Assembly (NCBI GenBank): GCA_019056805.1
Contig: DXJG01000007.1
Span: 1,992 to 65,991, forward strand
From: Candidatus Baldrarchaeota archaeon
GTDB taxonomy: Archaea; Asgardarchaeota; Baldrarchaeia; Baldrarchaeales; DXJG01
Reading direction: 5' to 3'
Length of the DNA stretch: 64,000 bases
A program made the translations under genes and the position numbers. Positions 258 to 64,000 of this stretch are shown piece after piece (position 1 is the stretch's first letter; every line of letters begins with the position of its first letter). Under the pieces are notes generated by a model. The model did not search any database. It saw only the letters and a list, made by a program, of their open reading frames with translations, and was not told the origin of the DNA.

Positions 258-3200
258 TTATTGTTTTGAGGGTTTAACTAGACTTTTTTCCATTGCTGCT
301 CGCTTTCTTTTGCGCATAATTACTATAGCTACACCGATTATTGCCACAGCAATTATTACGAGGTACATTAATGGTATTTCTCTTGGTGGTGGTGCTTCTT
401 CTCCTGGTTTACCTATTGTTGGTATCCAGCCAGCCAAGAATTCTGCTAATGAGCTTACTATTGTTTTCTTTTGTTTGCCGGAGTATACTACTACTTCAGG
501 GTCTTCGTAGACGAAGTATCCGTCCCATTTCGGAAATCCTACGCTTAGGAAGTACATGGTACTTTGGAATGTCCATCCGCCAACGCTTGTTTCAGATTCG
601 TAGTCTGTGTACGTTGCAACGAAGGTGCTTAGCGGAATTGTGTGAGTTGAAACGTTGCAAACCATGCTTAGGTTTCCGCCCCAGATGTATGTGTCACCCA
701 TGTTTACCTCTGCAAACTTTAATCCACTAGTGTCTAGTGAAATTCTTGATGCTTCTACAATTTCATCTGGGGTTATTGGTGTTCCATCTTCACTTACTAC
801 TTCCCAGCTTCCACTTGTTTCTGCGTAGATGTAATAGTTGAGTGATAAGCTTAGGTTTTCTAAAACGGCTATGCCCGTTGGTAGGTCTAGATCCCAGTTT
901 CCTATATGTTGGTCTATCTTTATGCGAGCCTCTGTACTATTTGTTGCTGTTGAGTTTTCTACGTAGAAGTGTAGTTTGAAGGATAGTTCTTCAAGTGAAG
1001 CGTCTACCGGGCGTTCTTGGAATGTGCGGAGATCTGTGCCATAAATTTCTTCACCATACCATGCGTAGTAGCTTCTTCCAAACGGGAACATTGTACCATT
1101 AATGTCAAGATATGAAACACCGAATTCTACGCTTTCGTTTATTGGAAGTGTTAACATTCCGGTTTCATTGTAGATGCCAAAGGCTTCTCCGGGAGTAACG
1201 AATATTACATTGCCTACAGCTTCAGGTATGAAGTAATGAGTAGCCTCGTCTTCATCCATGATCAGATTGTCATTTGTATCGTTGTAGATAAATATACCTG
1301 CGTATTCGTATCTAAGATCTACATGGTAGGATTGGAAGGTTTCATTTTCTCCTGTTGAAACCCAGTATGATTGTTGGAAGCCGAACCAGAGCCATGTCCA
1401 AGTGACTTCTTCTTTAACCCAGTCCCAACCTTCTTCTTCAGCCTTTTTGAGGTAGTCTTCCCATGTCATGTTTCTTGCCATTCTTGCAATGTCCCAGTAT
1501 CCTGATTTAGGAGCATTTCTCTCGGTGTCCCAGAGAGTTTCATTTATTATGGCCATCGTCTCTGGTGAAACTGGTGTCATGTTTGTGTAGAACCAGTAGT
1601 ATGTTTCATTCCATCTGTTCCAATAGGTATTGGTGGATGTTCCCATCCAAGCATTTACAATTAATTCATCGCCGGGTATTACTGGGTTTGGATCGTACAC
1701 TATATTAACGTCAAGGCCATTTACTGTTTCATTCCAGCCGAATTCTCCAACATATACCCTCTTAACATAGAATTGATCATCTGTTGTACTTAGATCTCCA
1801 TCTAAGTCTAGTGCACCAGTTGTAGGATCTATTGTCCACTTTCTGTAACCCCAAAGACCCCATTCAGGGGATCCAACAATTACATCCCAAACTTCGTACC
1901 TGTAGGAAACATCGCCCCACCGAAGTTCTTCAAGATGCCAAGTCACGGGGTAACCCCAAGAGAGACGAGCTACCTTGATATGCTCAACATATAGATTTGT
2001 TGTGTAATTTACACCATTTACCGTTATATTGTATATTGGGAATTCATATTCGTAAGAGTAGAGGTCATTATAGTATCTTGGCGGTATAGTGTACCACCAT
2101 TCTGGGTGCAGAAGCCAGTTGATCGGTATTAGATCGTACCATGCACCTGACACTGTGTAAATACGGTAGTAGTCATACATTAGATTTATTGATCTATACT
2201 CGTTTATCCATACTGTTGTATTGTAGGTTTCACCGTTCCATGTGAAGGTTTCTGGTCCAGGATATTCATATCCGCCTAGTTCTACGGTCACTATTCCTAT
2301 AAACTCGTAGTCTTCTAAGCTTTCCAGATCTATTCTGGAACCGTTAAGCAGATACAAAACATAAGTATTGTTTTCCCAGTCATATTCTGGTTCAGGGATA
2401 ACTGTGTAATATATGGTACCACTTACGTTTACTTCAAAAAAGACAACCCTTAGATGACGGGATACATCTAGGAGTGTTCCATTAAACAGAGTAACATTAC
2501 CAGATTCAGTGGTGGAATCGTAGGTGAAATAGTCAACATATAATTTTATTAGGCTTTCTCTATCGTATGATCCCTGGTTTGTCAGATTTCCTATGAATAT
2601 TGCAAATCCTATTTCTTCGATATCCCAACAATCTATTCCAGATACCTTCGTGTATAAGCCTTGTCCCTTTGTAATGCTATAGGTCACACCATCTACGATA
2701 ATGTATCCTGTCGTAGCACCCTCATAATCGTAATGAATAAGGTACAAGGAACCATTTACTAAGGCGTAATCGTCTTCAGGAACTGCTCCACCCTCGCTCT
2801 TTGGCTGCTGTAGGCACCACCATGAAAGCCATTCGTACTCGTCACTTACACCTTCATATGGAAGCTCTACTCTTTCTTCTCCCACTAAGGTGTAATACCA
2901 AGATCTTTTGAACCATTCGGGTACAATTATGGACTTTCCATTGTATTCCCCGACATAATATGCTGATGGATATTCGATGTAGTATCTTTTACCATTTCTT
3001 TCAAAGTAATACATGTACATATAGTCGTAGTCATACCTTACGTAAATCTTTGTTCCGTTTTCAAGTAGAATATAGTATTCCTGTGCTATGTAGTCCCAGT
3101 CTATCCACCCCTTTGTAAGGTTAACCCATGTGGTTCCATTGATAACGGTAAAGTAACCACCAAACTCGACTGGTACTCTGCCGATCTTCTCAACGTTTAA

Positions 3201-6200
3201 ACAATAATTGTAGTCTGCTAACCATATAATTTCTCCATCTAGAGTAATTATGAAGTAGGCTTCTTCAAAAATACTCCACCATGGCGAACTCATATACGTT
3301 GTAATGTTGTAAGTCTCGCCAGTAGTTTCGTCGTAGATTGTTGCATTATATATGAATGCATGGTATGCTTCATATACGTAAATCTTTGTTCCGTTTTCTA
3401 ATATGTAGTAGCGTTTGTATTCGTAGGTTGTTGGATCCCATTCTTCACGTAGCAATCTGTATTCGTATTCGTATCCGTTCCAGAACTTTATTTCTTTTAA
3501 CGGTAGTTTTTCGCCGTTTATTAATATGTAGGGCTTACTTAAGATGAGATATTTCTTGCCATTTGATGTTTCTGCATAGTATCTTGTCTCTGGGTTGGGT
3601 ATGTATACTTCAACGCTTCCATTATTAATGGTATAGACTTTGCTGTATGCCCAGTCTTCTAAAATATGTTCTCCCCATGGTTCAGTATAATCTGGACCAT
3701 ATGTCCAGTTAAGCAAGTTAACACTAAAACTGTATCTTTGGTCATTGGCGTATTCGGTGAAACTCATATTCACTTGAATGAGATACTTTCCATCTTCTGT
3801 GGCGAAAGCACTATAATTGTTTACAATAATATAGGTTTCGTTTACGACTGTGTCTTTGTGATGCCAGTCTAGCCACATATTTATCCATTCACCAGAAGTC
3901 TGGTTGAAAGAGTAGTGTTCCCAATGCCATCCTTCAACTTCTTCCATCGTACCTGTGGTCTCATTCCATATTTCGTACGTACCATACTCGTAGACCTCTT
4001 TGTTAGTTTGATTGTAAACTATTATTTCTGTGGTGTTTTCTCTTAGATTTATTGTTGCAATTATTTCCAAGTTGCTCCATATAGTTTCATTTTCGCTCCA
4101 ATAGTAATTCCAACAGTTGAATCTAACTCTTATTCCATCGACATCGGTTACAAGCTGACTGCCACCTTCCATTTCTACTTCAACTATAAACCATTGGCCA
4201 GGATTAGTCGCAAAATACCAAGTTCCAGAAGTTGCTCCTTCTTGATCTCTAATTCTAACATTAATTACTGGTTTCTCTACGGAAAGTTGATGTGCATTTT
4301 CATATATCCACTCCCAGTCTCTTGGCCATATCCTCCACTGACTACTATATACGTAGTAGTCTATCCATAGGTTTGGCCCAGGATTTCCTATGAACTTCCC
4401 TTCAAATTCTAATATGATTTTATTATCTTCAACGGTTTTTGTGCCGCTTATTAGCTCGTAGAGCCGTAATTCAGAGGGTACCTCCTCGATTTTCCAACCT
4501 TCCACATAGTCAATGTATTGTCCCCATTCATCCTCTTTTAGTGTTTCATTCCAGTATTGGTAGAGCAGATAATAGTTAAAAGTACCGTCTGTATTATTGT
4601 AGAAGAGAAGCAAATTGGGTGAAGCCCAGTCTGTTGTTTCTACCTCATAATATTCTCCTGTTGTTTCGTCCCAGTAAACTCTTGTTACATTTATTTCTTT
4701 AGCAATAGTTACCCATTGCTCCATTAGATATGGTCCAAACACCCACTCCCTTGTTATTATTGTGGCATTTGGATCCCAAACATATGTGTCTAGGGTTTCA
4801 TTGTATACCCAGCCTCCATGATATACCCTGTATTCTTCATGCCACCCCGTCACATTAACATAGGTCCTCAAGCTATATGGAAGACGAATTACTATGCTGG
4901 CGTTTCTAAAATCAGCATCAGATATCCCGGTTATGTTTAGTCTTATGATAAATGTTTGGTTGATTCCAACACTACGGATTAATTCATAGTCTGTGTTTAA
5001 TATTTCTGCTAGGTACGTACCACCATACATCATGTCAAAGTATACTGCTACTTCGTCCCATGGACCGCCTATGGCGACCTCTTTGTATAAGCTTAGTTCA
5101 CTGTCCCAATAATAGTACGAGGATGTACTAATGTAATTGCTTTCATTGTCAAAGATGTTTAGATAGACATTGTATATTCCTTTTGGAGTTAGGTCGTTAA
5201 ACTGGCCTGTTATTACGAAGTTATATTGATCTGGGGTTTCAATTAGGGTTGTTTGACTTTGATTCAATGTAAAGAACTCACCCGTAGTACTGCCGTATGG
5301 GTCTGAATAGTTATAAATAGAGGTCCATGTAGACCAATCATTCGATGAGTAATCGTAGTAAATTGATAGATAGGCGGATATATTTACGGCCCACATATTC
5401 CAAGATAGATCTATTGTTCCAAGTTCGGTGCCTTCTTCAAATAGGAGTTTGGGAATTGTTATGTTTATCATTACAGGTGCGTTTAATTCAATCCATGTGT
5501 CTGGTGTAACCAAATACCAGGTTTCGGTTGTTGTGTTGTAGCAGAATATGTCGTAATGTGCTTTGGGGCCAAACTCCCAGCTTATGTCTCGGTATGTCCA
5601 GTTCCATCCCCATGTTTCGTTGTATAGTCTCCACCATACTCTTATCTCGGGTGGTAAATTCATTACTGATGGGTCGACATAAATTGCGTCTTCAGTTTCA
5701 TAGTATAGTAGCTCACTGAAGAACGGTATGATATGCAAGGTATACGTTGTATCAGCTAGCCAATTTCCTATGATTATTTTGAATCCTACAAAGTTTAAGC
5801 TGGCATTTCTTGCTCTTTCTATAGCGTCTCTTGCGTCAAAAGGCACTGAGCATTCTGGGGTCCCAAAGTCATATGACTGATAGGGTTCAACAGGGTTAAG
5901 TTCATCATTATAAAAGTCTATAAGTACTGATTCGATTGTCGCTCCGTTGTCTATGGAGGCATTAAATCCAGTTAAAAATTCAATTGCTCTTAGTTCTGCT
6001 ATTATTAAGATTTCTACAGTACCGCTATCCGCGCTTGTGTTGGAGAATGTTATAAATAGTTCTCCTTCGATGAAAGAAGCATTAAAGAAGGCTAAAACTC
6101 CTAATTCCTCATTGTAGAATATATATACATTTGGCTCTCCTTCTTCTCCTTCTTCTGGTGGTGGATATTCTGCTCCGCCTGCTTCTACTCTAAAGTGGTG

Positions 6201-6710
6201 CTCTGTGTTTTCAGTCCAGTCTCTTATGGTTACCGTAAACTTAACACAAGTTGCTCCAATGTCAGTTGCTCTTACAGCTATTTCTTCACCGTTTATACTT
6301 ATGGTTGTTCGATCTGTGCCTATGTTGGTGACTGCATAAGTATCTAAAACGTTAAATGCATCATCACAAAGATGTATACTTAATGAATCAATTATGGCGC
6401 CGCCGTCGATGCTTAGTGACAGTTCTTGTAGTCCCCTTACACCGTCAAGTGTGACGTAAATTAATAAATCTACAGTTTCACTGTCTTTTGAACTATTTTG
6501 AAAAGTGATTTCAAGCCCGTTTTCAATTAATGTATAATTGAAATAGTCTAGTGGTTTTCCTTCAGCATAATAGTCTACCATTATTACGGGGCTTTCTCCT
6601 TCCTGTTTTGGTATCATTGCCGAACTTAAGTTAATACTCGAAAGAACTATTAGTACACAAAGTATCACTGAAAAAAGAGGCTTAAAACCTATTTTATTTA
6701 CCATTTTCAT
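258..6710 (-). CDS. Giant cell-surface protein (2150 aa), signal peptide plus C-terminal transmembrane anchor, aromatic-rich and probably N-glycosylated
   Basis: Uninterrupted 6.45-kb ORF. N-terminus MKMVNKIGFKPLFSVILCVLIVLSSINLSSA looks like a signal peptide; C-terminus has one hydrophobic helix (LMYLVIIAVAIIGVAIVIM) followed by RKRKR. Very rich in Y/W/T/N/E with many N-x-S/T sequons and internal repeats (e.g. YILENGTKIYV twice). Confidence 0.85.
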   Translation of the reverse strand: MKMVNKIGFKPLFSVILCVLIVLSSINLSSAMIPKQEGESPVIMVDYYAEGKPLDYFNYTLIENGLEITFQNSSKDSETVDLLIYVTLDGVRGLQELSLSIDGGAIIDSLSIHLCDDAFNVLDTYAVTNIGTDRTTISINGEEIAVRATDIGATCVKFTVTIRDWTENTEHHFRVEAGGAEYPPPEEGEEGEPNVYIFYNEELGVLAFFNASFIEGELFITFSNTSADSGTVEILIIAELRAIEFLTGFNASIDNGATIESVLIDFYNDELNPVEPYQSYDFGTPECSVPFDARDAIERARNASLNFVGFKIIIGNWLADTTYTLHIIPFFSELLYYETEDAIYVDPSVMNLPPEIRVWWRLYNETWGWNWTYRDISWEFGPKAHYDIFCYNTTTETWYLVTPDTWIELNAPVMINITIPKLLFEEGTELGTIDLSWNMWAVNISAYLSIYYDYSSNDWSTWTSIYNYSDPYGSTTGEFFTLNQSQTTLIETPDQYNFVITGQFNDLTPKGIYNVYLNIFDNESNYISTSSYYYWDSELSLYKEVAIGGPWDEVAVYFDMMYGGTYLAEILNTDYELIRSVGINQTFIIRLNITGISDADFRNASIVIRLPYSLRTYVNVTGWHEEYRVYHGGWVYNETLDTYVWDPNATIITREWVFGPYLMEQWVTIAKEINVTRVYWDETTGEYYEVETTDWASPNLLLFYNNTDGTFNYYLLYQYWNETLKEDEWGQYIDYVEGWKIEEVPSELRLYELISGTKTVEDNKIILEFEGKFIGNPGPNLWIDYYVYSSQWRIWPRDWEWIYENAHQLSVEKPVINVRIRDQEGATSGTWYFATNPGQWFIVEVEMEGGSQLVTDVDGIRVRFNCWNYYWSENETIWSNLEIIATINLRENTTEIIVYNQTNKEVYEYGTYEIWNETTGTMEEVEGWHWEHYSFNQTSGEWINMWLDWHHKDTVVNETYIIVNNYSAFATEDGKYLIQVNMSFTEYANDQRYSFSVNLLNWTYGPDYTEPWGEHILEDWAYSKVYTINNGSVEVYIPNPETRYYAETSNGKKYLILSKPYILINGEKLPLKEIKFWNGYEYEYRLLREEWDPTTYEYKRYYILENGTKIYVYEAYHAFIYNATIYDETTGETYNITTYMSSPWWSIFEEAYFIITLDGEIIWLADYNYCLNVEKIGRVPVEFGGYFTVINGTTWVNLTKGWIDWDYIAQEYYILLENGTKIYVRYDYDYMYMYYFERNGKRYYIEYPSAYYVGEYNGKSIIVPEWFKRSWYYTLVGEERVELPYEGVSDEYEWLSWWCLQQPKSEGGAVPEDDYALVNGSLYLIHYDYEGATTGYIIVDGVTYSITKGQGLYTKVSGIDCWDIEEIGFAIFIGNLTNQGSYDRESLIKLYVDYFTYDSTTESGNVTLFNGTLLDVSRHLRVVFFEVNVSGTIYYTVIPEPEYDWENNTYVLYLLNGSRIDLESLEDYEFIGIVTVELGGYEYPGPETFTWNGETYNTTVWINEYRSINLMYDYYRIYTVSGAWYDLIPINWLLHPEWWYTIPPRYYNDLYSYEYEFPIYNITVNGVNYTTNLYVEHIKVARLSWGYPVTWHLEELRWGDVSYRYEVWDVIVGSPEWGLWGYRKWTIDPTTGALDLDGDLSTTDDQFYVKRVYVGEFGWNETVNGLDVNIVYDPNPVIPGDELIVNAWMGTSTNTYWNRWNETYYWFYTNMTPVSPETMAIINETLWDTERNAPKSGYWDIARMARNMTWEDYLKKAEEEGWDWVKEEVTWTWLWFGFQQSYWVSTGENETFQSYHVDLRYEYAGIFIYNDTNDNLIMDEDEATHYFIPEAVGNVIFVTPGEAFGIYNETGMLTLPINESVEFGVSYLDINGTMFPFGRSYYAWYGEEIYGTDLRTFQERPVDASLEELSFKLHFYVENSTATNSTEARIKIDQHIGNWDLDLPTGIAVLENLSLSLNYYIYAETSGSWEVVSEDGTPITPDEIVEASRISLDTSGLKFAEVNMGDTYIWGGNLSMVCNVSTHTIPLSTFVATYTDYESETSVGGWTFQSTMYFLSVGFPKWDGYFVYEDPEVVVYSGKQKKTIVSSLAEFLAGWIPTIGKPGEEAPPPREIPLMYLVIIAVAIIGVAIVIMRKRKRAAMEKSLVKPSKQ

Positions 6711-15333: not shown

Positions 15334-16560
15334 TTGCAGTTTGGAGCTTTCTTTGGTATTTGGCTGATTTTCTTAATATTTATATTTATGCTAGCTGCTG
15401 AAGAAAGTCAAAGGAGAAAAGAAACTTTTCAGAAAATATATTCATGGTTAAAACAGAAATCTAAAAAGATATATTATGAAAAAGGCGGCTTTTTGAAAAG
15501 ACCTAGAATTATTGCAGAATTGAAACCAGAAATGGAATTGGAACGAGTTGAAGTTACAACATTTACTGTTCACCACGGGTATTATACAGGTACACATTAC
15601 GCTTCACATGCAAGAACTTATCTTAGAATCTTGGGTACGAGTGAGGAAGGTACTTTTGTAAACATCACTATAAGAGATGAAGGTCTTTTTGATAAACTTG
15701 CTATAGGGCTAGGACTTACAAAAGATATAGATTCAGGAGACCCCATATTTGATCAAACACATAGAATTAAAAGTGGAACACCTGAAATCGCCCTTAAACT
15801 CCTAAAGGATAAACAATTTAGAGATTATGTATCAATGATTCGTGATTTAAGGAAGTTTGAAATTAGAGGAGGAAAACATTTACATTTTATAGTTGAGTGT
15901 AATTATGACGTTTCATCTGCTGTGAATGCTATTTTAGCTATGGAAAGAACTGCAGAAGTTTTAGCGCCAGAGATTGAAAGAAAACCAGTAAAGGTTGAAA
16001 AAGCAAGACCCGTAACCCCGAAAGTAGAGCCTCGCAGAGCCGTAAGTTCCGAGGTAACGTTGAAATTGAAGAAAGAGTTTGAAAAATTGTCAATTTCTGT
16101 TTCTAAATTAGAATTTAAACCTTCAGAAGAAAACTTCACTAGGGTGATCATTACACCTTTACTAGGCGAATTCGATTACGTGCAATATGAAATCACTGAA
16201 AAATTGAAGGTAAGAGCTTTGGATAATCTTGAGAAACCTGCAAGTAAAACAATTACGATTCAGATATACCCCAAAGATATGAAAACAACCTCAACTCAAA
16301 AACCTACCTCTATTGAGGAAATCAAGACATTATTTGATATTAGGTGTGAGGATCAAGAAGTTTTAAGAAGAATTTCCGAAGCATACATACTTTTTGAAGT
16401 ATTAAGCGAGATTAAAGAATTGTCTAACTTCAATGTAAAACTGCAAGGCCAAACAATGGAAATATACTTAGAATGTGGCTTAAATCCAGAGAATATTAGG
16501 AGAGCTTATGAAGTAATCAGAGAAGCTGCATGGTGGACAAAATTCTATATACTAATTTAA
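15334..16560 (+). CDS. Uncharacterised membrane-anchored protein, paralog family member 1
   Basis: N-terminal TM helix; about 50-60 percent identical by eye to the 16723..17955 product, with shared blocks RVIITPLLGEFDYVQYEI and EEIKTLFDIRCEDQEVLRRISEAYILF. Confidence 0.75.
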   Translation: MQFGAFFGIWLIFLIFIFMLAAEESQRRKETFQKIYSWLKQKSKKIYYEKGGFLKRPRIIAELKPEMELERVEVTTFTVHHGYYTGTHYASHARTYLRILGTSEEGTFVNITIRDEGLFDKLAIGLGLTKDIDSGDPIFDQTHRIKSGTPEIALKLLKDKQFRDYVSMIRDLRKFEIRGGKHLHFIVECNYDVSSAVNAILAMERTAEVLAPEIERKPVKVEKARPVTPKVEPRRAVSSEVTLKLKKEFEKLSISVSKLEFKPSEENFTRVIITPLLGEFDYVQYEITEKLKVRALDNLEKPASKTITIQIYPKDMKTTSTQKPTSIEEIKTLFDIRCEDQEVLRRISEAYILFEVLSEIKELSNFNVKLQGQTMEIYLECGLNPENIRRAYEVIREAAWWTKFYILI

Positions 16561-16722: not shown

Positions 16723-17955
16723 TTGTACTCTTTATGGTTTATATGCTTGTGGTTTGCATGTTCAACGTTGGTAATTATATTAGCTATTTGGTTTGAAAAA
16801 ATAAGAAAAGCAAGAATAACAGAAATCTTTCAGGAAATTTTCTTTTGGTTAAAAGAGAAATCTGAAAGAATACGTTATGAAAATCATAAAAACCCTAGAA
16901 TTACAGCTGAGTTAAAACCAGAATGGCAATTAGATCAGGTTGAAGTTACAACGTTTATTGATAAATATGAACACTATTACGACTACTATATGTTACGTGC
17001 ATCTGAAAGATTTAATCTTAGGATTTTAGGTGTAGGTGAGGGGAAACATTTTGTAAGTCTTGCTATAAAAGATAAAGTCCCTTTTGATAGAAGTGTTTTA
17101 GGATCAGGGTTTGCAGAATATGTAAAATCTGGAGATCCAGTATTTGATCATTGGCATATCATTAGGAGTAAAACACCTCAAGCCGCTCTCAAACTTTTAA
17201 AAGACGATAAATTTAGAAGCTACATCAGTAATATACACAAATTAAGAATTTTCAAAATTGAGGGAGATGGAACTCTAAGTTTTACTGTTGAATGTAACTA
17301 TGATCCAATATCTGCTAAAAATGCCATTTTGGCTATGAAAAGAGTATTAGAAGTTCTATCACCAAAAACTAAGGAAAAAACTGCCGTTAGTGAAAGGGTT
17401 AAACCCGCTGTTTTAAAAGCTGAACCTCAGAAAATTATAGATCCCGAATTACTTTTAAACTTAAGAAAAGAATTTGAAAAATTATCGACCCATGTTTCTA
17501 AGTTAGAGTTTAAACCCTTGGAGGAAAATTTCTCTAGAGTGATCATTACTCCTTTACTAGGCGAATTCGATTACGTGCAATATGAAATTGCTGAAAAATT
17601 GAAAGTAGAAGCAATAGACGACCTTAAGAAAACTGTAGAAAAACCCATTACAATTGAAATACGTCCTAAAGAAGTAACGTTATCATTAGGTCAAAAAATA
17701 GCTTTTATTGAGGAAATCAAGACATTATTTGATATTAGGTGTGAGGATCAAGAAGTTTTAAGAAGAATTTCCGAAGCATACATACTTTTTGATTCTTTGA
17801 GCAAAATCAAAGAATTGTCTATCTTCAGCATAAAGTTGCAAGATTCAACGTTGAAAATATGTTTAGAATGTAGTGTCGATCCTGAAAACATCAGAAAAGC
17901 TTATGAAGCAGTTAAAGAAGCTGTCAATCTGGTTAAATTCCACCTATTAATCTAG
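16723..17955 (+). CDS. Uncharacterised membrane-anchored protein, paralog family member 2
   Basis: Same architecture and conserved blocks as 15334..16560; tandem arrangement. Confidence 0.75.
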   Translation: MYSLWFICLWFACSTLVIILAIWFEKIRKARITEIFQEIFFWLKEKSERIRYENHKNPRITAELKPEWQLDQVEVTTFIDKYEHYYDYYMLRASERFNLRILGVGEGKHFVSLAIKDKVPFDRSVLGSGFAEYVKSGDPVFDHWHIIRSKTPQAALKLLKDDKFRSYISNIHKLRIFKIEGDGTLSFTVECNYDPISAKNAILAMKRVLEVLSPKTKEKTAVSERVKPAVLKAEPQKIIDPELLLNLRKEFEKLSTHVSKLEFKPLEENFSRVIITPLLGEFDYVQYEIAEKLKVEAIDDLKKTVEKPITIEIRPKEVTLSLGQKIAFIEEIKTLFDIRCEDQEVLRRISEAYILFDSLSKIKELSIFSIKLQDSTLKICLECSVDPENIRKAYEAVKEAVNLVKFHLLI

Positions 17956-18214
17956 GACTCGAAATATCTCATAACCATATACATCTAGTTATTTTCCGAC
18001 ATATATTGCGGTTGGAAGAAAAAATTTGCTTAAATGGATATATGTTGCTCTTCGAATTTTAGGTAGATACTGGTTTTGAATTCGTGTATTTTGAGGTTTC
18101 AAATGTGGAAGAAATGATACATCAATCGTCATTATTATCCTTTGTAAAAATAAAAACTACGACAAATATTTAAATAAGGTAAATTGAATAAATAGTTAAG
18201 AAGGTGGGGATTAG

Positions 18215-18875
18215 ATGCAGTTTGGTTCCTATTTTTTGCTTTGGTTAATTGTTATAACTCTACCGATAATTTTGGCACCTATTTTCCTAATATTTCTAGA
18301 GAAAAAGAAGATAAAAGAAACTTTACAGCAAACTTACTCTTGGTTAAAAGAAAAATCTCCAAAAAATATACATTGATAAGGTTCATACAAAGAATCCCAA
18401 GATCATAGCCGAGATAAAACCAGAATGGCAATTAGATCAGGTTGAAGTTACAACGTTTCCTATAGGTGCTTTTACATCTCCCAGGCGCGGTCTGTTTTTC
18501 TTCTTTCCAAGAAACTACTTTAGTATCTCAGGTATAAAGGAAATAGAATCGCCTATAAAATTTGTAGTAACGGGAAGAGATCCTTTGTCTGTAACCATTG
18601 CCAGATCGGAGTTTAAACATGATTTTGAGACAGGAGATCCCGTATTTGACCGAAGATACATGGTTAAGGGTGAAGACTCTGAAGCGATTCCCAAGATTCT
18701 AAGTGATTCTAAGTTTAGAAGCTACATATTGGGAATATACGATCTGATAAAGTTTGAAGTCAGAGGAAATAAACATGTAAGTTTCATAGCTGAGTGCAAC
18801 CCTGATATTAAATCTGTAGAAAACAGCATTTTAGCAATGAAAAGAATAATAGAAATTTTATCAGAAACCATCTAA
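18215..18875 (+). pseudogene. Decayed third copy of the tandem paralog family (frameshifted N-terminus, truncated C-terminus)
   Basis: A short ORF from ~18215 (MQFGSYFLLWLIV...SWLKEKSPKNIH-stop) matches the paralog N-termini, then similarity continues in another frame (KNPKIIAEIKPEWQLDQVEVTTF ... GDPVFD ... FRSYI ... ECN ... ILAMKR) and stops at 18875, lacking the ~230-aa C-terminal half. A 43-bp stretch is identical to copy 2. Confidence 0.6.
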
Positions 18876-19071
18876 ATCTTACGATAATGTATCTACAATA
18901 TCAGAACTTGTGGATATTATTTTCACATTTATTATAATGTTGGATTAGGGTTTAGTAAGGCATATATAGTTAAGTGTTTCATCGTTCTTTTACCATGAAT
19001 TAATTTTGAATTTAAATTATGATTTAGTTTGTAGGGAAGATGATGGGCTACGTTATTAGGAGGAGAAAGTT

Positions 19072-19392
19072 GTGAACAGTACTCAGCATGGAAATAGGCA
19101 GAGCTCTATAAGGATTCAAGTGAAGTTCTTGGCGTCGTTAAAACATATTTTGGGAGTTAAAAATGTTGATTTGGAAATTTCTCAGCCAATGAAGTTGATA
19201 GAAGTTTTAAATTTACTTGTAGAAAAATATGGAGAAAAATTCAGGGAAGCTGTGTTTGATGAAGAAGGAAAAGTTAGAAATGAGCTTCTTATCTTGGTGA
19301 ATGATGCGGAAATCTCTGTGCTTAACGGATTAGATACTAAAATATCTGATGGAGATACAATAACTCTACTACCTACAGTGCATGGAGGATAA
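19072..19392 (+). CDS. MoaD/ThiS-family ubiquitin-like small protein (SAMP-like) with C-terminal Gly-Gly
   Basis: 106 aa ending in ...TITLLPTVHGG; size and diglycine terminus are typical of the beta-grasp sulfur-carrier/modifier family. GTG start preceded by GGAGG. Confidence 0.75.
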   Translation: MNSTQHGNRQSSIRIQVKFLASLKHILGVKNVDLEISQPMKLIEVLNLLVEKYGEKFREAVFDEEGKVRNELLILVNDAEISVLNGLDTKISDGDTITLLPTVHGG

Positions 19393-37525: not shown

Positions 37526-40500
37526 ATGGTAAACTGCAAATTTGAACTTATAATATATATTACAACATTGTATGCGGGTGTTCTGATGAAAAGGACCATC
37601 TGCATATTAATAATTTTAGTGATGACATTAGCAGCCATTATGGATATAGTTGCCATGCCAGAGATAGATAGCGGGTCCCAGATTATAACTGCAGATAGGA
37701 AAGTATCATCTAACCTTGAAGATGACGTTATAATGTTAAGTAAGAACCAACCGCTTGAAAACCTCACAGCAGAACGTTTTTCAATTATCAGTTCGTTTCA
37801 TCGTGCACTTGGTAACTTTACTGGAGATGATATGCCAGAAGTTGCCTCAATAGCATATATAGACGGTAGAATACATTTCTATGATCTAGTTAATCGACAA
37901 ACGTATGCAATTAACAATGACACAGCTGGACCACAAGCTTGGAATGGTCTAATAATTGCTCGAGGAAATTTTGACCCAGACCCATGGGACGAGGTCATTA
38001 CTATTAACAAGACTGGTATCATAACAATTATAGATGGCAATGCTACAACTATCAAACGCATCGATCTGAACATTACAGAAGATATTAGTAATGTCATGTT
38101 TTTCGAAGTAGTTGATTTAGATCTTAATGGATACTCTGATACAGTAATGCTACTTAGAACAAACACATCGAAGGAAATTTTTACTATAGTAAATGGGACT
38201 CCTAGCGCTACCGAGGTGGTTCCTACAAATTTAACCTTGTCTCTTGCATTGGATGTAACTATAGGCAACTTTGCAGCCAATGATGGATTAGAACTTGCAA
38301 TTGTATATTCTGACTATACAGTAACCGTATATAATTATACATTTCAGCGTCTTGTGAATAGTACTATTCCTAATGTTTGTAGGATAGCAACTATAAGCAA
38401 CGCATCTTGGCACTATGATGCCCTTATTGCACTACTTTTAACCACACCAAAAAATGTAACTATTTACAATGCAACCACGCTAACGCCGCTTGGCTACTCG
38501 ACGTTAGTCGACTTTTATTTGAATGTAAAACCAAAGGCAGCTGACCTTGATGACGACAAAACAAATGAAGTTATAATTCCTACAGCAGATGGATTTGCAA
38601 TTTTTGACCTAAACACAAATAATATTACAAAAACAGCTATTCTATTTACAAATAGCCCAACATATCTTATTACATCGAAAATCACTAGAGACCAGACCTA
38701 TGACTTTGTAATTGGCAACAATGAAGTTCTATTCATGTTTAAGGGTGTCAAGGGTAGTGTTGCAAAGCCGAGAATTCTGCGAAAAATTTCTGAGCCTTCC
38801 TATATTCAGACATGTGAAGTATGGCAATACGACACTGGCTTACCGGATCTTTTCGTTCTAACCGATCTAACTGATTTTTCTCTTTATGTTTATAGGTCAG
38901 ATTCTAGTGCGCCACGTCTTAGTGATTTGAAAGTCTATCCTACTAGACCAACAGTTGATGATAGCTATGTTTCTATTTCAGCAAAAATCATCGACGAAGG
39001 TGTTTTTGATAATCCTGTTTTAGTCTATAACATTACTACGGTCAGTGGTACACTTTTAGAGCAAGGAGAAGTTTTAATGGTATCAGAATCATATATGAGT
39101 GATACCTATCTTGTTTATCTTTCGGATTTAAAAGCTGGGACATATACTTTCAAAATTATTGTAACTGACAGCTACGATAATAGAGCGATTTACGATAACA
39201 ACGGTTCCCTATATACATTCAATGTTTACAGTAAACTTCTGTTTCGAACAACGCTTCAAACGGTTACCTTGACCGCCCCTACTATAACTAGTGATCATCC
39301 AATGGATTTAGGTAAGCTGGATGGAGATCAATATGATGATGTAGTAATTGGAGTTTCAGATCATGCAGAGATCATATGGGGTAACCATAGCGTTACAATA
39401 CTTGATACATGGGCTGATGTAGACAATGTGGAAGTATATGTTGCGAATCTGCTAGCTGGTTCAAACGACGATATATTAGTTTACTATTATAATGTTACAA
39501 GCTCTCAGTATCAAATTAATATTTATGACGGTTTTTCACTAGAGGTATCAAAAAGATATACGTTCACCTCGGAAGTTCAGAATTTTGCATTTGGCGATGT
39601 TGACGGTGATGGATATGAGGATTTAGTGTTTAGTTTAGATGTAAATACTACACACGACAAACTCATCGTAATGAATACGGTAACCAGTGTAACTTTGCTA
39701 GAAAAAGAAATTATAAACACCCTTTACGTTGGAGTGTTCAATCTTACAGAAGACCAATACATGGATGTTATTGCGGTATCATTTGACTCCTCAACTAAGA
39801 TACTTAATTTAACTGCTTATGCTGGTGAACAAAATTTAAACATGATATACTTTTTCAACCAGTCTTTCCCAAGCGACGAAGATGTATATGAAGTGGTGGT
39901 TTTTGTCGATAACTTCATAACAACTGAATATTTGCAGGTTGCACTTGCCACAGGTTTATCGGGACATGACAAAATATTTTTATTGAACGCTAGTAACGGC
40001 TACTATTTAAAAGAGCGCGAAATACCATATATAACAGGACTGACTCCTGTTGATTACGGATTCGATGGGATCAAAGAGATATCCCTTATTTTATACGATA
40101 ATTCACTGATTATAGTTAGTTTGGCTAACGAATCCTTCAGTTTTAAGAAAGATTCGTTACTCCCAGAAACGCCTATTTCAACATTTTGGGATCATTTCGA
40201 TGAGGATAATTATAAGGACTTGATATATGTTCTATCTGATGAGATCGCTGTATATTCAATTGCTGAGGATCGTTTCGAAGTTGTACAGTATCCGTTCAGA
40301 ATGATACATTCGGCGAGTATTGGTAAATTCTTTGAACTTCCAAGCAAAGACATCTGTTTCCTTACGTATGACTTGATTTTTGAAAAATACATAAACATAA
40401 ATATGTTCTATAGACCAAACATTACTTTGTCCCTTAGCAACAATATTGTAGCTCAAGGCGAATCCACCGAGGTAATCGTAGAGATTAGAAACGTGTTTGG

Positions 40501-42442
40501 AGATCCTGTCACTGAAAGCGATATACTGGGAATTCTTGAGTTGGATGGAAGTGTTTTGCAAACAAGTAGCTTTACTTCACATGGAAATGGTATATACAGC
40601 CTTACTGTTAGTGCAACGAACATGCCTTTAGGATACTACAATCTCTCTGTGATTATAGATGATCCCTATTATGGTACTTTCACGTTCAGTGAAAATCTTA
40701 CGGTTACGGGTCAAATAGATGGCGTACTTATAAGCCCAGATAAAGTTCCACAAGGCGGATTTGCACTACTAAATGTAACTCTATCAGATCAATATGGGTA
40801 TCCTGTAACAAACGCGATCGTCAACATTACTTTCAATGGGCAGGTTTACACACCCGATAAAATCATTAGAAACATGTATCTCTTCAAGATATCAACAGAG
40901 AATTTGTCTGTTGGACTATATACCATTATGGTTACGGCGGATCATGAATTAACGCCGCCGATACAAATAAATTCTACTATTAGTTTAACGGGGATTCCCC
41001 ATGTTTCAGTTAGGGGAAACGGAATTACAGAGCCTCCTGTAATTCAAGGGACAGCATTCGATGTAGCTTTGGATTTGTATGATGAATACAATTATACAAT
41101 TGATGGTGCAACTATAATTGCATATTTCTTTGGAAAGCCGTACACATTTACGGACTTAGGAAATGGAACTTATATTGCTAATGTACCCACGGAAAATGTA
41201 CCAGGAGGTATACACTCTCTCTTAATAGAAGTGAATCATGATTACCTTGAAAGACAAGTGTTTAGGGTAAATGTAACTGTTATAGGTAACATAAACCTAG
41301 AGGTGACTATTTCCCCGGATTACATTGAACAAGAGTCTACGATGGAAGTTAGAATAGTGGCTGTTGATGACTTTGGGTATCCGATAATAGGTGCAAATGT
41401 TAGAATTCTATTTGCAAATGAAACTTACACTGCTGAGAACATAAGGGACAATATATATGTCGCAACAATAAATGTAGGAAAAATATACCATGGTGAATAC
41501 CCACTTACAATAGAGGTTAACGGACAATTCTACACGACAAAGATTGCAGTGGAGACAGTATATGTTTATCCGAAGATACCAAAACTTGATTTATCACCAC
41601 AAACATTAATGACATTACTGGGAATTTCAATGGGTGTTTCGTTCGTAGGTTTATCATTATACTATGGCATTTCATCAAAATTGACTAGGAGTCTTTCAGT
41701 AGATGAAAGACAAAGACTACTTATGAGTTTCAAACCCTTAGACCTTACCTACTTTGCACTTGCCCTACTTCTGTTCGGTACGCTTGGAACTGCAGGCTAT
41801 CTTTACATAAAAGAATTCTACGAGTTAGCTGTGGCAGTTCTAGGGCTGGCATTAATGGAATTGTTATTAGTATATGGTATATGGCTTTACAGAGACGCTG
41901 CATATACACTAGTTACTGAGAAAATGTCTATTAAACGGGCTGTTGCAAGTTTATGGCACATAGTTTTAGCACCAATGATAGTACTAGGGATATTTGAATG
42001 GGGAGCGAACATCGAATGGTTTGCATACTATCTTCTTGGAGAAACAATAAACCTTGGTGTAATAGAGTTACCGTCACTGTACGTCAGTCTATTAGGTACT
42101 TACATTACTTCAATAATAGTTTTAGTTGCAAACATTTACCTTAATTCGAGAAGACTGAAGAACAGATTCCGTGAAATGAGAGTGGGTGGAACACCGGAAA
42201 AGGTAATAAACGAAGAGAAGATTATACAGCTTGGTAAAATGTCTAGTTCGATTAGAATTAAGTTCTTCGGTTTCCTTGTAATTCTCGGTGCAAGCTTAGT
42301 TTCAACGACACCGCTGCTACAGTACTATCAGTTAGGCGTTGTTGTAGTTCTTCCACTGATTTTCATAGTAGTAATTCCATATATAGTTTCTAAGATTCTA
42401 GGTGCACTAGGATTTACAAAGAGAACTATAGAAAGAGGATAG
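37526..42442 (+). CDS. Giant surface protein (1638 aa) with FG-GAP-like and Ig-like repeats and a polytopic C-terminal membrane domain
   Basis: Signal peptide (MKRTICILIILVMTLAAIMDIVA); D-x-D/N-G-D-G-Y-x-D motifs (DLNGYSDTV, GDVDGDGYEDLVF, LDGDQYDDVVIG); Ig-like repeats; last ~270 aa contain about 6-7 hydrophobic helices. Likely true start is the ATG encoding MKRT (about 60 nt inside the ORF). Confidence 0.85.
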   Translation: MVNCKFELIIYITTLYAGVLMKRTICILIILVMTLAAIMDIVAMPEIDSGSQIITADRKVSSNLEDDVIMLSKNQPLENLTAERFSIISSFHRALGNFTGDDMPEVASIAYIDGRIHFYDLVNRQTYAINNDTAGPQAWNGLIIARGNFDPDPWDEVITINKTGIITIIDGNATTIKRIDLNITEDISNVMFFEVVDLDLNGYSDTVMLLRTNTSKEIFTIVNGTPSATEVVPTNLTLSLALDVTIGNFAANDGLELAIVYSDYTVTVYNYTFQRLVNSTIPNVCRIATISNASWHYDALIALLLTTPKNVTIYNATTLTPLGYSTLVDFYLNVKPKAADLDDDKTNEVIIPTADGFAIFDLNTNNITKTAILFTNSPTYLITSKITRDQTYDFVIGNNEVLFMFKGVKGSVAKPRILRKISEPSYIQTCEVWQYDTGLPDLFVLTDLTDFSLYVYRSDSSAPRLSDLKVYPTRPTVDDSYVSISAKIIDEGVFDNPVLVYNITTVSGTLLEQGEVLMVSESYMSDTYLVYLSDLKAGTYTFKIIVTDSYDNRAIYDNNGSLYTFNVYSKLLFRTTLQTVTLTAPTITSDHPMDLGKLDGDQYDDVVIGVSDHAEIIWGNHSVTILDTWADVDNVEVYVANLLAGSNDDILVYYYNVTSSQYQINIYDGFSLEVSKRYTFTSEVQNFAFGDVDGDGYEDLVFSLDVNTTHDKLIVMNTVTSVTLLEKEIINTLYVGVFNLTEDQYMDVIAVSFDSSTKILNLTAYAGEQNLNMIYFFNQSFPSDEDVYEVVVFVDNFITTEYLQVALATGLSGHDKIFLLNASNGYYLKEREIPYITGLTPVDYGFDGIKEISLILYDNSLIIVSLANESFSFKKDSLLPETPISTFWDHFDEDNYKDLIYVLSDEIAVYSIAEDRFEVVQYPFRMIHSASIGKFFELPSKDICFLTYDLIFEKYININMFYRPNITLSLSNNIVAQGESTEVIVEIRNVFGDPVTESDILGILELDGSVLQTSSFTSHGNGIYSLTVSATNMPLGYYNLSVIIDDPYYGTFTFSENLTVTGQIDGVLISPDKVPQGGFALLNVTLSDQYGYPVTNAIVNITFNGQVYTPDKIIRNMYLFKISTENLSVGLYTIMVTADHELTPPIQINSTISLTGIPHVSVRGNGITEPPVIQGTAFDVALDLYDEYNYTIDGATIIAYFFGKPYTFTDLGNGTYIANVPTENVPGGIHSLLIEVNHDYLERQVFRVNVTVIGNINLEVTISPDYIEQESTMEVRIVAVDDFGYPIIGANVRILFANETYTAENIRDNIYVATINVGKIYHGEYPLTIEVNGQFYTTKIAVETVYVYPKIPKLDLSPQTLMTLLGISMGVSFVGLSLYYGISSKLTRSLSVDERQRLLMSFKPLDLTYFALALLLFGTLGTAGYLYIKEFYELAVAVLGLALMELLLVYGIWLYRDAAYTLVTEKMSIKRAVASLWHIVLAPMIVLGIFEWGANIEWFAYYLLGETINLGVIELPSLYVSLLGTYITSIIVLVANIYLNSRRLKNRFREMRVGGTPEKVINEEKIIQLGKMSSSIRIKFFGFLVILGASLVSTTPLLQYYQLGVVVVLPLIFIVVIPYIVSKILGALGFTKRTIERG

Positions 42443-61774: not shown

Positions 61775-62230
61775 ACATTACACCTCCACTGGTAACATAA
61801 ATCATCTTCTATTTGTTAATTCGTTTTAGTAAACTTTCTTCACTACTGATTTCTCTCTAATTTAATTAATCTTATTTTAACAAGATAGCGGAAGATACGA
61901 TTTTATCACATAAGTTTAATAATTTAAAGGATAGCTTGATTTGATAGAATTAAAGGTTATCATTATTGAATTATTTAATAATATAATGAAGGTTACTAAG
62001 TTTATTTTTGAAAGACTATTAATTATATGATACTATTAGAAAATTAAATAGTTTAGAATATAGATTAAATAAAATTTTATGTTAAACTGTCAAATTGTTT
62101 TAAAGTTCTTGAGATAAATTTTTAAATATTCAAATTCTCTTATTTTAGCAAAAAATTACCTTCTAGCTTACTTTCTCGATCAAAGCAAAAAGCAAGATGC
62201 TCTTAAAAATGGGATAAGAGGTGTATAAAA

Positions 62231-64000
62231 GTGGATATCGCAGTTGAGCCAGAATGGTGGTACCTATGGATTCCTTTGCTAGCTAGCCTCATAGCTATTG
62301 GTGTGATTGCATATCTTATATCATACATTAAAAAGAAACCCGTTGGAACAGAGAAAATGAAAGAAATCGCCGAGGCTATCAGAATAGGCGCTAAGGCCTA
62401 TCTAAAACGTCAAAACACCACGATCGCCATGGTCGCCCTGATTATAGCTGTCGGTCTATACATATATGACTTTGTCAGTCACGGTGGAATCCCATTCTAT
62501 TCCCTTGCATTCGTTCTAGGAGCAGCAGCATCTACCTTAGCCGGGTACATAGGTATGAACATCTCCACAATTGCTCATGTAAGAACCACCGAAGCCGCTA
62601 GGAACCATAATCTTCCCGAAGCAACAAAAATCGCATTTCGTGGCGGTGCAGTCACAGGTTTAGGTATTACAAGTATAAGTATTCTCAGCCTCACCATCTT
62701 ATACTATGTTTATTCAATGATTGCCGGTGTTCCAAACCCAGAACTAGTAGTTAGCTTCGGTTTCGGTGCCAGCTTAGTAGGTCTTTTTGCCCAGCTTGGA
62801 GGCGGCATCTACACTAAGGGTGCAGATGTTGGTGCAGATATAAGTGGAAAGGTTGAAGAAGGAATTCCTGAAGATGATCCAAGAAACCCAGCAGTAATAG
62901 CTGACCTAGTTGGAGACAACGTAGGCGACTGCGCTGGCAGAGGAGCTGACCTATTTGAATCTTTCACCGATAACAATATTGGTGCTATGATTCTTGGAAT
63001 AGCACTCGTAGCATACTTTGGCTTCGCTGGCGTAGTATTTCCATTAATTGCAGGTGCCATCGGCATCGTAGCCTCAATTATCGGTATCTTAACCGTAGGT
63101 AAAATTAAGAAAGATGACCCAATGATGTCAATAAATGCAGGATACATTCTAATGGGTATCACGGCAGCGATTTTGTTCTATATCTCCATAGTATTAATGT
63201 TAGGAGGAAAAATTGTCTTTTTCATCGATATTGTTATTGGCATAATCACCGCTGTTTTAGTTGGCCTCTTAATACAATATTACACCAGCTATCAATACAA
63301 GCCAGTTAAGACCATAGCTGAGGCAGCAAAAACAGGGCCTGCAACAAACGTTATCACAGGACTAGCAGTCGGAATGAAGAGCACTGGAATACCACTCATC
63401 GTATTATCTGCTGCGATAATTATCTCGTACATAATCTCTGGCGGATTAGTCGACCATAAGATGGGCTTTTACGGAATCGCCATGGCTACACTGGGCATGT
63501 TATCTATGACCAGTATAATCATGTCCTCTGACACATTTGGCCCAATAACCGATAATGCCGGTGGAATTGCAGAAATGTCTGGCCTTGGCGAAGACGTTAG
63601 AAAAATCACTGACATGCTAGACTCTATTGGTAACACTACAAAAGCTATAACTAAAGGATATGCCATGGGCTGTGCAACACTTTCAGCATTCGTCCTCTTT
63701 GCATCATACCTTGAAATAGTATCCGCAAGGATCCCAGATTTCACCATTAGCCTAACATCGCCTGTAACGATTCTAGGACTGTTTCTTGGAGGAATTGTTC
63801 CATTCCTATTCTCAGCATACGCAATAGAGGCTGTTGGAAAAGCAGCATTCAAGATTGTAGAGGAAGTAAGAAGACAATTCAGAGAAATACCTGGATTAAG
63901 AGAAGGAAAAGCAAAGCCGAGATACGATGTGGCTGTTGACATTGCGACAAAGGCAGGTATAAAGGGTATGCTTATCCCTGGTGCCATAGGTATTATAAGT
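62231..64000 (+). CDS. hppA: Membrane-bound H+-translocating (V-type) inorganic pyrophosphatase, 5' portion; runs off the window end
   Basis: My own translation from the GTG at ~62231 gives [55 protein letters not shown], the canonical PPase motifs. Not in the ORF track because the frame has no stop before the window end. Confidence 0.93.

What the first reader, a model, noticed from the sequence alone, without database searches (positions are those of the whole stretch)
18215..18875. Third paralog copy is a pseudogene or gene remnant
A 53-codon N-terminal ORF matching the paralog N-termini ends in a stop; similarity resumes in a different frame (KNPKIIAEIKPEWQLDQVEVTTF, with a 43-bp tract identical to copy 2), the central region is diverged, and the reading frame terminates at 18875, about 230 codons short of the intact copies.
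Basis: seen in the sequence. Interest (0 to 1): 0.4.

Follow-up and report, generated by a model that had tools for sequence, protein, structure and literature searches.

The report
Conserved short paralog, one-base frameshift
The "third copy" is a normally short (219-codon) gene that is intact in related Asgard archaea and is interrupted here by one extra C, so it is an ordinary, very recent frameshift (or a consensus error) and not a decayed, truncated remnant.

Summary
A 53-codon ORF (18215-18376) matches the paralog N-termini. Similarity resumes in the +1 frame and runs to the stop at 18873-18875. A 44-bp tract (18415-18458) is identical to copy 2.

Removing one C at 18359/18360 restores a 219-aa ORF. 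Intact orthologs of 217-219 aa, 56-83% identical over their full length, occur in at least five other metagenomic lineages, in the same position downstream of a long paralog. The short length is therefore native, not a truncation. Long paralogs have two homologous domains and the short type has one.

The frame-corrected gene shows dN/dS 0.12 against its nearest ortholog, the same as intact pairs. It has fewer lineage-specific amino-acid changes than the intact sister lineage, and its promoter-like box and Shine-Dalgarno sequence are conserved. The frameshift is therefore very recent.

The identical frameshifted sequence is in three JGI assemblies, which argues against a one-off assembly error. 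No orthologue shares the frameshift and no RNA structure follows the site, so programmed frameshifting is unsupported.

The organism is a Baldrarchaeia (Asgard) archaeon. The family has no Pfam or NCBIfam match. Fold similarity to CCDC47 and TtfA is weak and inconsistent. Overall this is an ordinary finding.

The parts
18165..18184 (+). Conserved AT-rich box (AATATTTAAATAAGGTAAAT) about 30-50 nt upstream of the start codon. It is a candidate archaeal TATA/BRE-type promoter element.
   Evidence: The block is nearly identical upstream of the intact orthologue in L095. Promoter function is inferred, not tested.
18203..18209 (+). Shine-Dalgarno-like GGTGGGG, ending 5 nt before the ATG.
   Evidence: Read directly from the sequence. 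The same motif (GGTGGGG) is conserved in L095.
18215..18376 (+). Frame-0 segment of copy 3. It encodes 53 codons (the transmembrane helix and the start of the conserved WLKEKS motif) and ends at a premature TGA at 18374-18376, which is followed directly by TAA.
   Evidence: Codons 1-48 are orthologous to P0001-P0005.
18359..18360 (+). The lesion: CC where orthologues have a single C. This is a 1-nt insertion that turns codon 49 from CAA (Gln) into CCA and shifts the frame.
   Evidence: DNA alignment of the window with five orthologous genes. Deleting one C gives a 219-aa ORF. The same CC is present in L008/L012, L009/L013 and L014.
18361..18366 (+). A6 run immediately after the inserted C. It is shared with the sister lineage but interrupted in more distant orthologues. 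It is the only place where a +1 slip of Lys-tRNA (AAA to AAA) could restore the frame.
   Evidence: The slip is a theoretical possibility only and has no supporting evidence.
18361..18875 (+). +1-frame segment of copy 3. It encodes the globular alpha+beta domain and the C-terminal helix, and ends at the native stop TAA at 18873-18875.
   Evidence: tblastn against copies 1 and 2. Full-length alignment with intact orthologues that end at the same position.
18415..18458 (+). 44-bp tract identical to copy 2 (16913-16956). It encodes the family's most conserved motif, KPEWQLDQVEVTTF.
   Evidence: The sister orthologue is already 40/44 identical to copy 2 in this tract, and only CGA to CAG (R75Q) points to a micro-conversion from copy 2.
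15334..16560 (+). Copy 1, an intact long paralog of 408 aa: a transmembrane helix followed by two homologous domains.
   Evidence: D1 against D2 by hhalign gives E 9.5e-6.
16723..17955 (+). Copy 2, an intact long paralog of 410 aa. It is absent from the syntenic locus of the sister lineage.
   Evidence: L095-L099 carry only one long gene before the short one.

Best explanation
Window 18215-18875 is this organism's orthologue of a conserved, naturally short (217-219 aa) paralog. The family is a small one of N-terminally membrane-anchored proteins found in Baldrarchaeia-type Asgard archaea.

**Architecture.** Long family members (copies 1 and 2, about 400 aa) carry two homologous alpha+beta domains. 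The short type carries one domain and ends at its native stop, 18873-18875.

**The lesion.** In this population a single C was inserted at 18359/18360 (TCT CAA AAA became TCT CCA AAA A). This moves the ribosome out of frame after codon 48 and into a TGA at 18374-18376.

**Age.** The event is very recent. Everything else about the gene still looks like a gene under purifying selection: promoter-like box, Shine-Dalgarno sequence, start, native stop and conserved residues. It is therefore a nascent pseudogene or loss-of-function allele, not an eroded remnant.

**Shown:** the position and nature of the lesion, the native short length, synteny, the selection signature, and the presence of the lesion in three assemblies.

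**Inferred:** that the extra C exists in the cells' DNA, and that it abolishes the protein.
For: **One C restores the gene.** Deleting one C yields a 219-aa ORF.

**Intact orthologues exist.**
- They are 219 or 217 aa long, 83, 70, 68, 58 and 58% identical, with 100% coverage.
- Their genes align end to end with the window, including the stop.
- A metagenome scan found 9 loci. Eight are intact and only the window's own population is shifted.

**Synteny.** The order NosD-like beta-helix protein, long paralog, short paralog, Urm1, CN-hydrolase and saccharopine dehydrogenase is seen in Guaymas Basin and hydrothermal-vent contigs. A 408-aa plus 217-aa tandem is seen in L004-L006.

**Selection.**
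- dN/dS is 0.12 at dS 0.66 against the nearest orthologue. Comparisons among the intact orthologues give 0.12-0.21.
- The outgroup-polarised window branch has 11 nonsynonymous and 22 synonymous changes. The intact sister branch has 20 and 18.
- Window-specific changes at otherwise invariant sites are conservative: F9L, L67I, R75Q, I118V and V192A.

**Regulatory signals.** The upstream AT-rich box and the GGTGGGG motif are conserved.

**Not a one-off error.**
- The identical frameshifted sequence is present in JGI assemblies 3300027323, 3300004069 and 3300002532.
- No intact allele more than 83% identical exists among 5.8 billion protein clusters.
- No other split gene is evident in the 64-kb window.

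**Architecture.** Domain 1 against domain 2 of the long paralogs gives hhalign probability 83% and E 9.5e-6.
Against: - The three JGI assemblies are 100% identical over up to 17.7 kb. They may derive from related samples or from re-assembly of the same reads, so they are not proven independent. No read-level data could be inspected.
- The two Logan single-run assemblies of the same population do not cover the site. L010 starts at 18429, inside the 44-bp repeat.
- The complete lack of relaxed selection is what a consensus error would also produce.
- The A6 run next to the lesion could allow some +1 slippage, so 'no protein' is not demonstrated.
Confidence: 0.65

Rival explanations
1. The extra C is a sequencing or assembly consensus error. 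The gene is really an intact 219-codon ORF in the organism.
For: The gene shows no other defect and no relaxation of selection, which is what an intact gene would show. The three assemblies carrying the lesion are 100% identical and could share reads. The lesion changes a homopolymer length (C to CC) next to an A6 run.
Against: The same base is present in three separately deposited JGI assemblies and in the sequence supplied here. No other split gene is seen in 64 kb, so the assembly is not generally prone to indels. No intact allele of this population is on record.
Confidence: 0.2
2. The frameshift is real but is bypassed during expression. A +1 ribosomal slip of Lys-tRNA on the A6 run (AAA-A), or transcriptional slippage, would produce full-length protein, so the gene stays functional.
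For: The inserted C lies directly before an A6 run (18361-18366), where AAA-to-AAA re-pairing after a +1 slip is perfect. The shift window (18348-18373) contains this run. The gene is otherwise perfectly preserved.
Against: None of the other orthologous lineages (17 contigs examined) needs a frameshift. The A6 run is interrupted outside the sister lineage, so nothing is conserved as a recoding signal. No stimulatory RNA structure follows the site (z = +0.59). The A-site codon AAU is not a stop, and the genome's AT-rich composition suggests it is not rare. A canonical -1 slip on A-AAA-AAT would enter the wrong frame, which stops after a few codons.
Confidence: 0.08
3. This is the first reader's view: an old, decaying pseudogene or remnant that lost about 200 C-terminal codons and is diverging freely.
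For: The frame is broken and the product is about 190 codons shorter than copies 1 and 2. The centre is only about 37% identical to them.
Against: Orthologues of the same short length are intact in at least five lineages. The central region is conserved among them. dN/dS is 0.12 and the window branch shows no excess of nonsynonymous changes. There is only one disabling mutation. Only 196 nt separate the stop from the next gene, and that stretch has no similarity to the long paralogs' second domain.
Confidence: 0.04

Closest known systems
Recent single-nucleotide frameshift pseudogenes or loss-of-function alleles in prokaryotic genomes
   Same: There is one indel at a short homopolymer and a premature stop a few codons later. 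Regulatory signals are intact, and the rest of the coding sequence is indistinguishable from a selected gene.
   Different: Nothing material differs. The only unusual aspect is the host, an uncultured Baldrarchaeia (Asgard) archaeon known only from metagenomes, so reality of the lesion at read level and expression are untested.
Programmed frameshifting in archaea, such as Sulfolobus solfataricus fucA1 with -1 slippage at A-AAA-AAT (recalled from the literature, not checked here)
   Same: The window contains the same heptamer, A-AAA-AAT, in the 0-frame phase at 18360-18366/7.
   Different: A -1 shift would enter the wrong frame here, because +1 is required. The split is not conserved in any orthologue, and there is no downstream structure.
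CCDC47, the PAT-complex subunit of the eukaryotic ER multipass translocon (PDB 7TM3 chain 4)
   Same: Both have a single transmembrane helix followed by a cytosolic alpha+beta domain and a C-terminal helix. The AlphaFold model of the intact short orthologue P0001 gives Foldseek E 8e-6, probability 1.0 and TM-score 0.53 normalised to the query. The chain identity was confirmed.
   Different: There is no sequence signal: no Pfam PF07946 hit and hhalign probability 0.5%. The long paralog's model does not retrieve CCDC47 in its top 50 hits. The family lacks CCDC47's luminal acidic domain and long coiled coil. A resemblance is possible but homology is unproven.
TtfA, the mycobacterial N-terminally anchored accessory factor of the MmpL3 transporter (PDB 6T84)
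   Same: Both have an N-terminal membrane anchor plus an alpha+beta domain. TtfA is the top PDB hit of the copy 1 model, with E 2e-3 and TM-score 0.57 normalised to TtfA.
   Different: The match is weak, at 13% identity. TtfA is not among the top 50 hits of the short paralog model. It comes from an unrelated taxon and context.
DUF3137 (Pfam PF11335)
   Same: Distant profile hits of this family's GDPxFD region include proteins that carry DUF3137.
   Different: The window's own proteins do not match PF11335 at E <= 1. The link goes through weak intermediates with E of 1e-4 to 1e-5.

Membership tests
Decayed pseudogene / truncated gene remnant | Shorter than its orthologues (loss of coding sequence) | tested here: not met
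   Orthologues are 217-219 aa and end at the same stop.
Decayed pseudogene / truncated gene remnant | Relaxed selection: dN/dS approaching 1, or an excess of nonsynonymous change on its branch | tested here: not met
   dN/dS is 0.12. The window branch has 11 nonsynonymous and 22 synonymous changes, against 20 and 18 on the intact sister branch.
Decayed pseudogene / truncated gene remnant | Multiple disabling mutations | tested here: not met
   A single 1-nt insertion is the only lesion. Removing it restores the full ORF.
Young frameshift pseudogene / null allele | A disabling indel relative to intact orthologues, present in the genomic consensus | tested here: met
   There is an extra C at 18359/18360 relative to five orthologous lineages. 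The same sequence is in three JGI assemblies.
Young frameshift pseudogene / null allele | The lesion is supported by raw reads, and no full-length protein is made | not testable with these tools
   No reads, transcriptome or proteome are available.
Programmed ribosomal frameshift gene | Frameshift and slippery site conserved among orthologues | tested here: not met
   All other orthologous loci are in a single frame. The A6 run is interrupted outside the sister lineage.
Programmed ribosomal frameshift gene | Stimulatory element (downstream RNA structure, or a stop or rare codon in the A site) | tested here: not met
   The 121 nt spanning the shift site (18340-18460) folds no better than shuffled sequence, with z = +0.59. 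The 0-frame stop lies 8 nt beyond the A run.
CCDC47 (Pfam PF07946) | Sequence match to the family profile | tested here: not met
   There is no Pfam hit at E <= 1. hhalign of A2 against vertebrate CCDC47 gives probability 0.5%.
CCDC47 (Pfam PF07946) | Same fold of the cytosolic domain | tested here: inconclusive
   The short orthologue model hits 7tm3_4 at E 8e-6 with TM-score 0.53. The long paralog model does not.
CCDC47 (Pfam PF07946) | Partner Asterix/WDR83OS-like subunit and association with the ribosome and Sec translocon | not tested
   No search for an Asterix-like gene was made. Association cannot be tested in silico here.
DUF3137 (PF11335) | Match to the Pfam model above the gathering score | tested here: not met
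   The window proteins give no hit. Only a remote relative, P0046, reaches 38 bits.

The most novel reading that the evidence does not exclude
The three tandem genes may belong to a Baldrarchaeia-restricted family of N-terminally anchored proteins whose alpha+beta domain is a true homologue of the cytosolic domain of eukaryotic CCDC47, the PAT-complex chaperone of the ER multipass translocon. That would make it a previously unlisted Asgard 'eukaryotic signature' membrane-biogenesis factor. The frameshifted short copy would then be a population-level loss of one subunit type.
Probability: 0.08. Interest if true: 0.6.

Novelty: new member of a known kind. Interest (0 to 1): 0.15.

Why it matters
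Mostly this is a correction for annotation. The locus should be annotated as one 219-codon gene with a single-base frameshift. It should not be annotated as two small hypothetical ORFs (53 and 96 aa, as in the IMG gene calls), nor as a truncated remnant.

The finding also shows that the family has two conserved architectures, one-domain and two-domain, and that the short form is dispensable or freshly lost in one Baldrarchaeia population.

The gene family itself may merit a separate look. It is narrow and uncharacterised, restricted to Asgard-type metagenomes, and membrane-anchored, with weak fold resemblance to membrane-biogenesis accessory proteins. The pseudogene question as posed is routine.

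Tried and rejected
- **Pfam and NCBIfam** on copies 1-3 returned nothing significant.
- **GTDB species-representative genomes**, scanned with the copy 3 profile, returned no relative. A second scan with the window's CDC48 gave at most 63% identity and no taxonomy. Taxonomy came instead from names in the CDC48 cluster at >=90% identity.
- **Exact look-ups** of the 96-aa ORF and of P0007 failed, probably because of start-codon or record issues.
- **Large-scale gene conversion from copy 2** as the source of the lesion or of the 44-bp tract was rejected. The sister orthologue is already 40/44 identical to copy 2 in the tract and about 75% identical across 18300-18458, against 78% for the window. 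At most a 2-nt patch (CGA to CAG) is conversion-like. The lesion lies 55 nt upstream of the tract.
- **Mis-assembly across the 44-bp repeat** was rejected as a cause. Both sides of the repeat are copy-3-type and colinear with orthologues.
- **-1 programmed frameshifting at A-AAA-AAT** was rejected because it enters the wrong frame.
- **RNA elements.** There are no Rfam families and no tRNAs in the window. The promoter and terminator scan was uninformative, being a bacterial consensus applied to an archaeon.
- **CCDC47 homology** was tested by profile-profile comparison and by a second structure model, and was not corroborated.

Full report
**1. What is in the sequence**

Three same-strand genes follow a 1440-aa NosD/beta-helix protein:
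- copy 1, 15334-16560, 408 aa
- copy 2, 16723-17955, 410 aa
- the region in question, 18215-18875

In frame 0, an ATG at 18215 opens a 53-codon ORF that ends at TGA 18374-18376, followed directly by TAA. The +1 frame is open from 18348 to the TAA at 18873-18875.

tblastn of copies 1 and 2 against the window gives two collinear pieces:
- the N-terminus in one frame (E 2e-6 and 4e-3)
- residues ~28-214 in the next frame (E 7e-32 and 1e-30)

The longest exact match to copy 2 is 44 bp, 18415-18458 = 16913-16956.

**2. The lesion**

Aligning the window with the DNA of five orthologous genes shows one extra base. The window reads AAATCT-CC-AAAAAATATAC. The closest orthologue reads AAGATCT-C-AAAAAATATAC, which codes S-Q-K-I-Y. 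The A6 run (18361-18366) is shared with that orthologue, and the inserted base is a C at 18359/18360. Removing it gives a 219-aa ORF.

**3. The short length is native**

- The frame-corrected protein finds full-length intact relatives (100% coverage) of 219, 219, 219, 217 and 217 aa, at 83, 70, 68, 58 and 58% identity.
- A scan of JGI metagenome contigs found nine loci. Eight are intact at 217 or 219 aa. The ninth is the window's own population.
- The closest orthologue sits in the same neighbourhood in Guaymas Basin sediment and hydrothermal-vent contigs. The order there is NosD-like protein, one long paralog, the 219-aa gene, Urm1/ThiS-like, CN-hydrolase, a 210-aa gene, saccharopine dehydrogenase. 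DNA identity to the window is 84-89% in the flanks.
- More distant lineages carry a 408-aa plus 217-aa tandem.
- All orthologues stop where the window's +1 frame stops.
- The central region that looks "diverged" against copies 1 and 2 is conserved among the short orthologues.
- The long paralogs are an internal duplication. Their domain 1 and domain 2 align with hhalign probability 83% and E 9.5e-6, and their predicted secondary-structure order is the same. The short type is the one-domain form and ends just before the long forms' linker.

**4. How old is the frameshift?**

- By the Nei-Gojobori method, the corrected window gene has dN/dS 0.12 (dS 0.66) against its nearest orthologue. Pairs of intact orthologues give 0.12-0.21.
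- Polarising differences with four outgroup sequences, the window branch carries 11 nonsynonymous and 22 synonymous changes. The intact sister branch carries 20 and 18.
- The five window-specific replacements at otherwise invariant positions are conservative, and the sister lineage has the same number.
- The AT-rich box and the GGTGGGG motif upstream of the ATG are conserved.

There is no trace of neutral decay. The insertion is very recent on the scale of this divergence, or it is not real.

**5. Real or artefact?**

The exact 53-aa product is called on contigs of three JGI assemblies (3300027323, 3300004069, 3300002532). All three are 100% identical to the window across the locus and carry the CC.
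- No intact allele of this population exists among the protein clusters searched.
- The rest of the 64-kb window shows no other split gene.
- This favours a real insertion. However, the assemblies may share samples or reads, and two single-run Logan assemblies do not cover the site. One of them breaks inside the 44-bp repeat.
- I put about 0.2 on consensus error.

**6. Recoding?**

- A -1 slip on A-AAA-AAT enters the wrong frame, which stops after a few codons.
- A +1 slip of Lys-tRNA along the A6 run would restore the frame.
- Against that, no orthologue is split and the A run is not conserved beyond the sister lineage.
- No structure follows the site; the fold z-score is +0.59.
- No canonical start exists in the +1 frame before a TTG at 18585. 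That start would give a 96-aa fragment beginning mid-domain.
- Programmed frameshifting is unsupported. Low-level accidental bypass cannot be excluded.

**7. The 44-bp tract**

The tract encodes the family's most conserved motif. The sister lineage's short gene is already 40/44 identical to the window's copy 2 there. Of the four differences, TGG (Trp) is ancestral in short genes and the last T/C varies. Only the adjacent double change CGA to CAG (R75Q) makes the window's copy 3 look converted towards copy 2. Across 18300-18458, the window copy 3 is 78% identical to copy 2 and the sister orthologue is 75%. The tract is real. It reflects strong conservation plus at most a micro-conversion, and it is unrelated to the lesion 55 nt upstream.

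**8. What the family is**

- **Sequence searches.** There is no Pfam or NCBIfam match. A profile search of 1.84 billion representatives finds only 38 clusters at E <= 1e-3 and 11 at <= 1e-10. Weak outliers include DUF3137-containing proteins, and one arrestin-domain protein carries a domain-2-like tail.
- **Taxonomy.** Named relatives are "hypothetical protein [Candidatus Baldrarchaeia archaeon]". The window's CDC48 clusters at >=90% identity with Baldrarchaeota/Baldrarchaeia entries. The host is therefore a Baldrarchaeia (Asgard) archaeon.
- **Models.** AlphaFold models are confident, with pLDDT 84 and 83. They show an N-terminal transmembrane helix, a beta-rich alpha+beta domain (two in the long form) and a C-terminal helix.
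- **Short-form fold search.** The only Foldseek hit below 1e-3 is CCDC47 of the ER multipass translocon, 7TM3 chain 4, at E 8e-6 and TM-score 0.53. The chain identity was checked.
- **Long-form fold search.** The best hit is mycobacterial TtfA at E 2e-3, and CCDC47 is not retrieved.
- **Further checks.** Profile-profile comparison with CCDC47 is null. No paper in the library links CCDC47 to Asgard archaea.
- **Reading.** I read this as a generic resemblance among membrane-anchored alpha+beta domains. It is a lead and does not establish family membership.

**9. Verdict**

The "truncated remnant" interpretation is rejected. The "pseudogene" interpretation is accepted only in the sense of a single, very recent frameshift in an otherwise intact and conserved short gene. 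This is an ordinary event of low interest. The uncharacterised gene family is a separate and modest curiosity.

Noticed in passing
window 16723-17955 (copy 2) compared with L095-L099: The sister lineage (Guaymas Basin and related contigs, about 88% DNA identity) has only one long paralog, of copy 1 type, between the NosD-like gene and the short gene. Copy 2 is therefore an extra long paralog in the window's lineage. Its N-terminal motifs (WLKEKS, KNP, KPEWQLDQ) resemble the short type more than copy 1. A copy 2-type orthologue (P0006) exists elsewhere.
   Followed up: partly
window 18876-19071 compared with L095 6661-7796: In the sister lineage, a 55-aa ORF and a 154-aa YbaK/tRNA_edit-domain gene (PF04073) lie on the minus strand between the short paralog and the Urm1-like gene. 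The window has only a 196-nt spacer there, so there is an indel of about 1 kb right next to the frameshifted gene.
   Followed up: partly
window 15334-16560 and 16723-17955: The long paralogs are internal duplications. Domain 1 (about residues 28-213) and domain 2 (about 232-408) align with hhalign E 9.5e-6 and share the same secondary-structure order. The second domains of copies 1 and 2 are much more alike (about 78% DNA identity) than their first domains.
   Followed up: yes
L010 (Logan SRR3732688 contig), start = window 18429: A single-run assembly of the same population breaks inside the 44-bp repeat shared by copies 2 and 3. This shows the repeat is long enough to fragment short-read assemblies at this locus.
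   Followed up: no
window 19072-19392: A 106-aa Urm1/ThiS-family ubiquitin-related modifier gene (Pfam Urm1 E 2e-13) lies directly downstream, followed by a CN-hydrolase. The arrangement is conserved in relatives.
   Followed up: no
P0054 (532 aa, from the representative search): A protein with arrestin N and C domains carries a C-terminal region matching domain 2 of this family (profile positions 242-402, E 1.9e-4).
   Followed up: no
window 61775-62808: This is the largest stretch (1034 nt) without an ORF of >=90 aa, in a part of the window with higher G+C (0.40 against about 0.34). There are no Rfam or tRNA hits.
   Followed up: no
window 258-6710 (-) and 37526-42442 (+): Two giant ORFs of 2150 aa and 1638 aa were not examined.
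   Followed up: no
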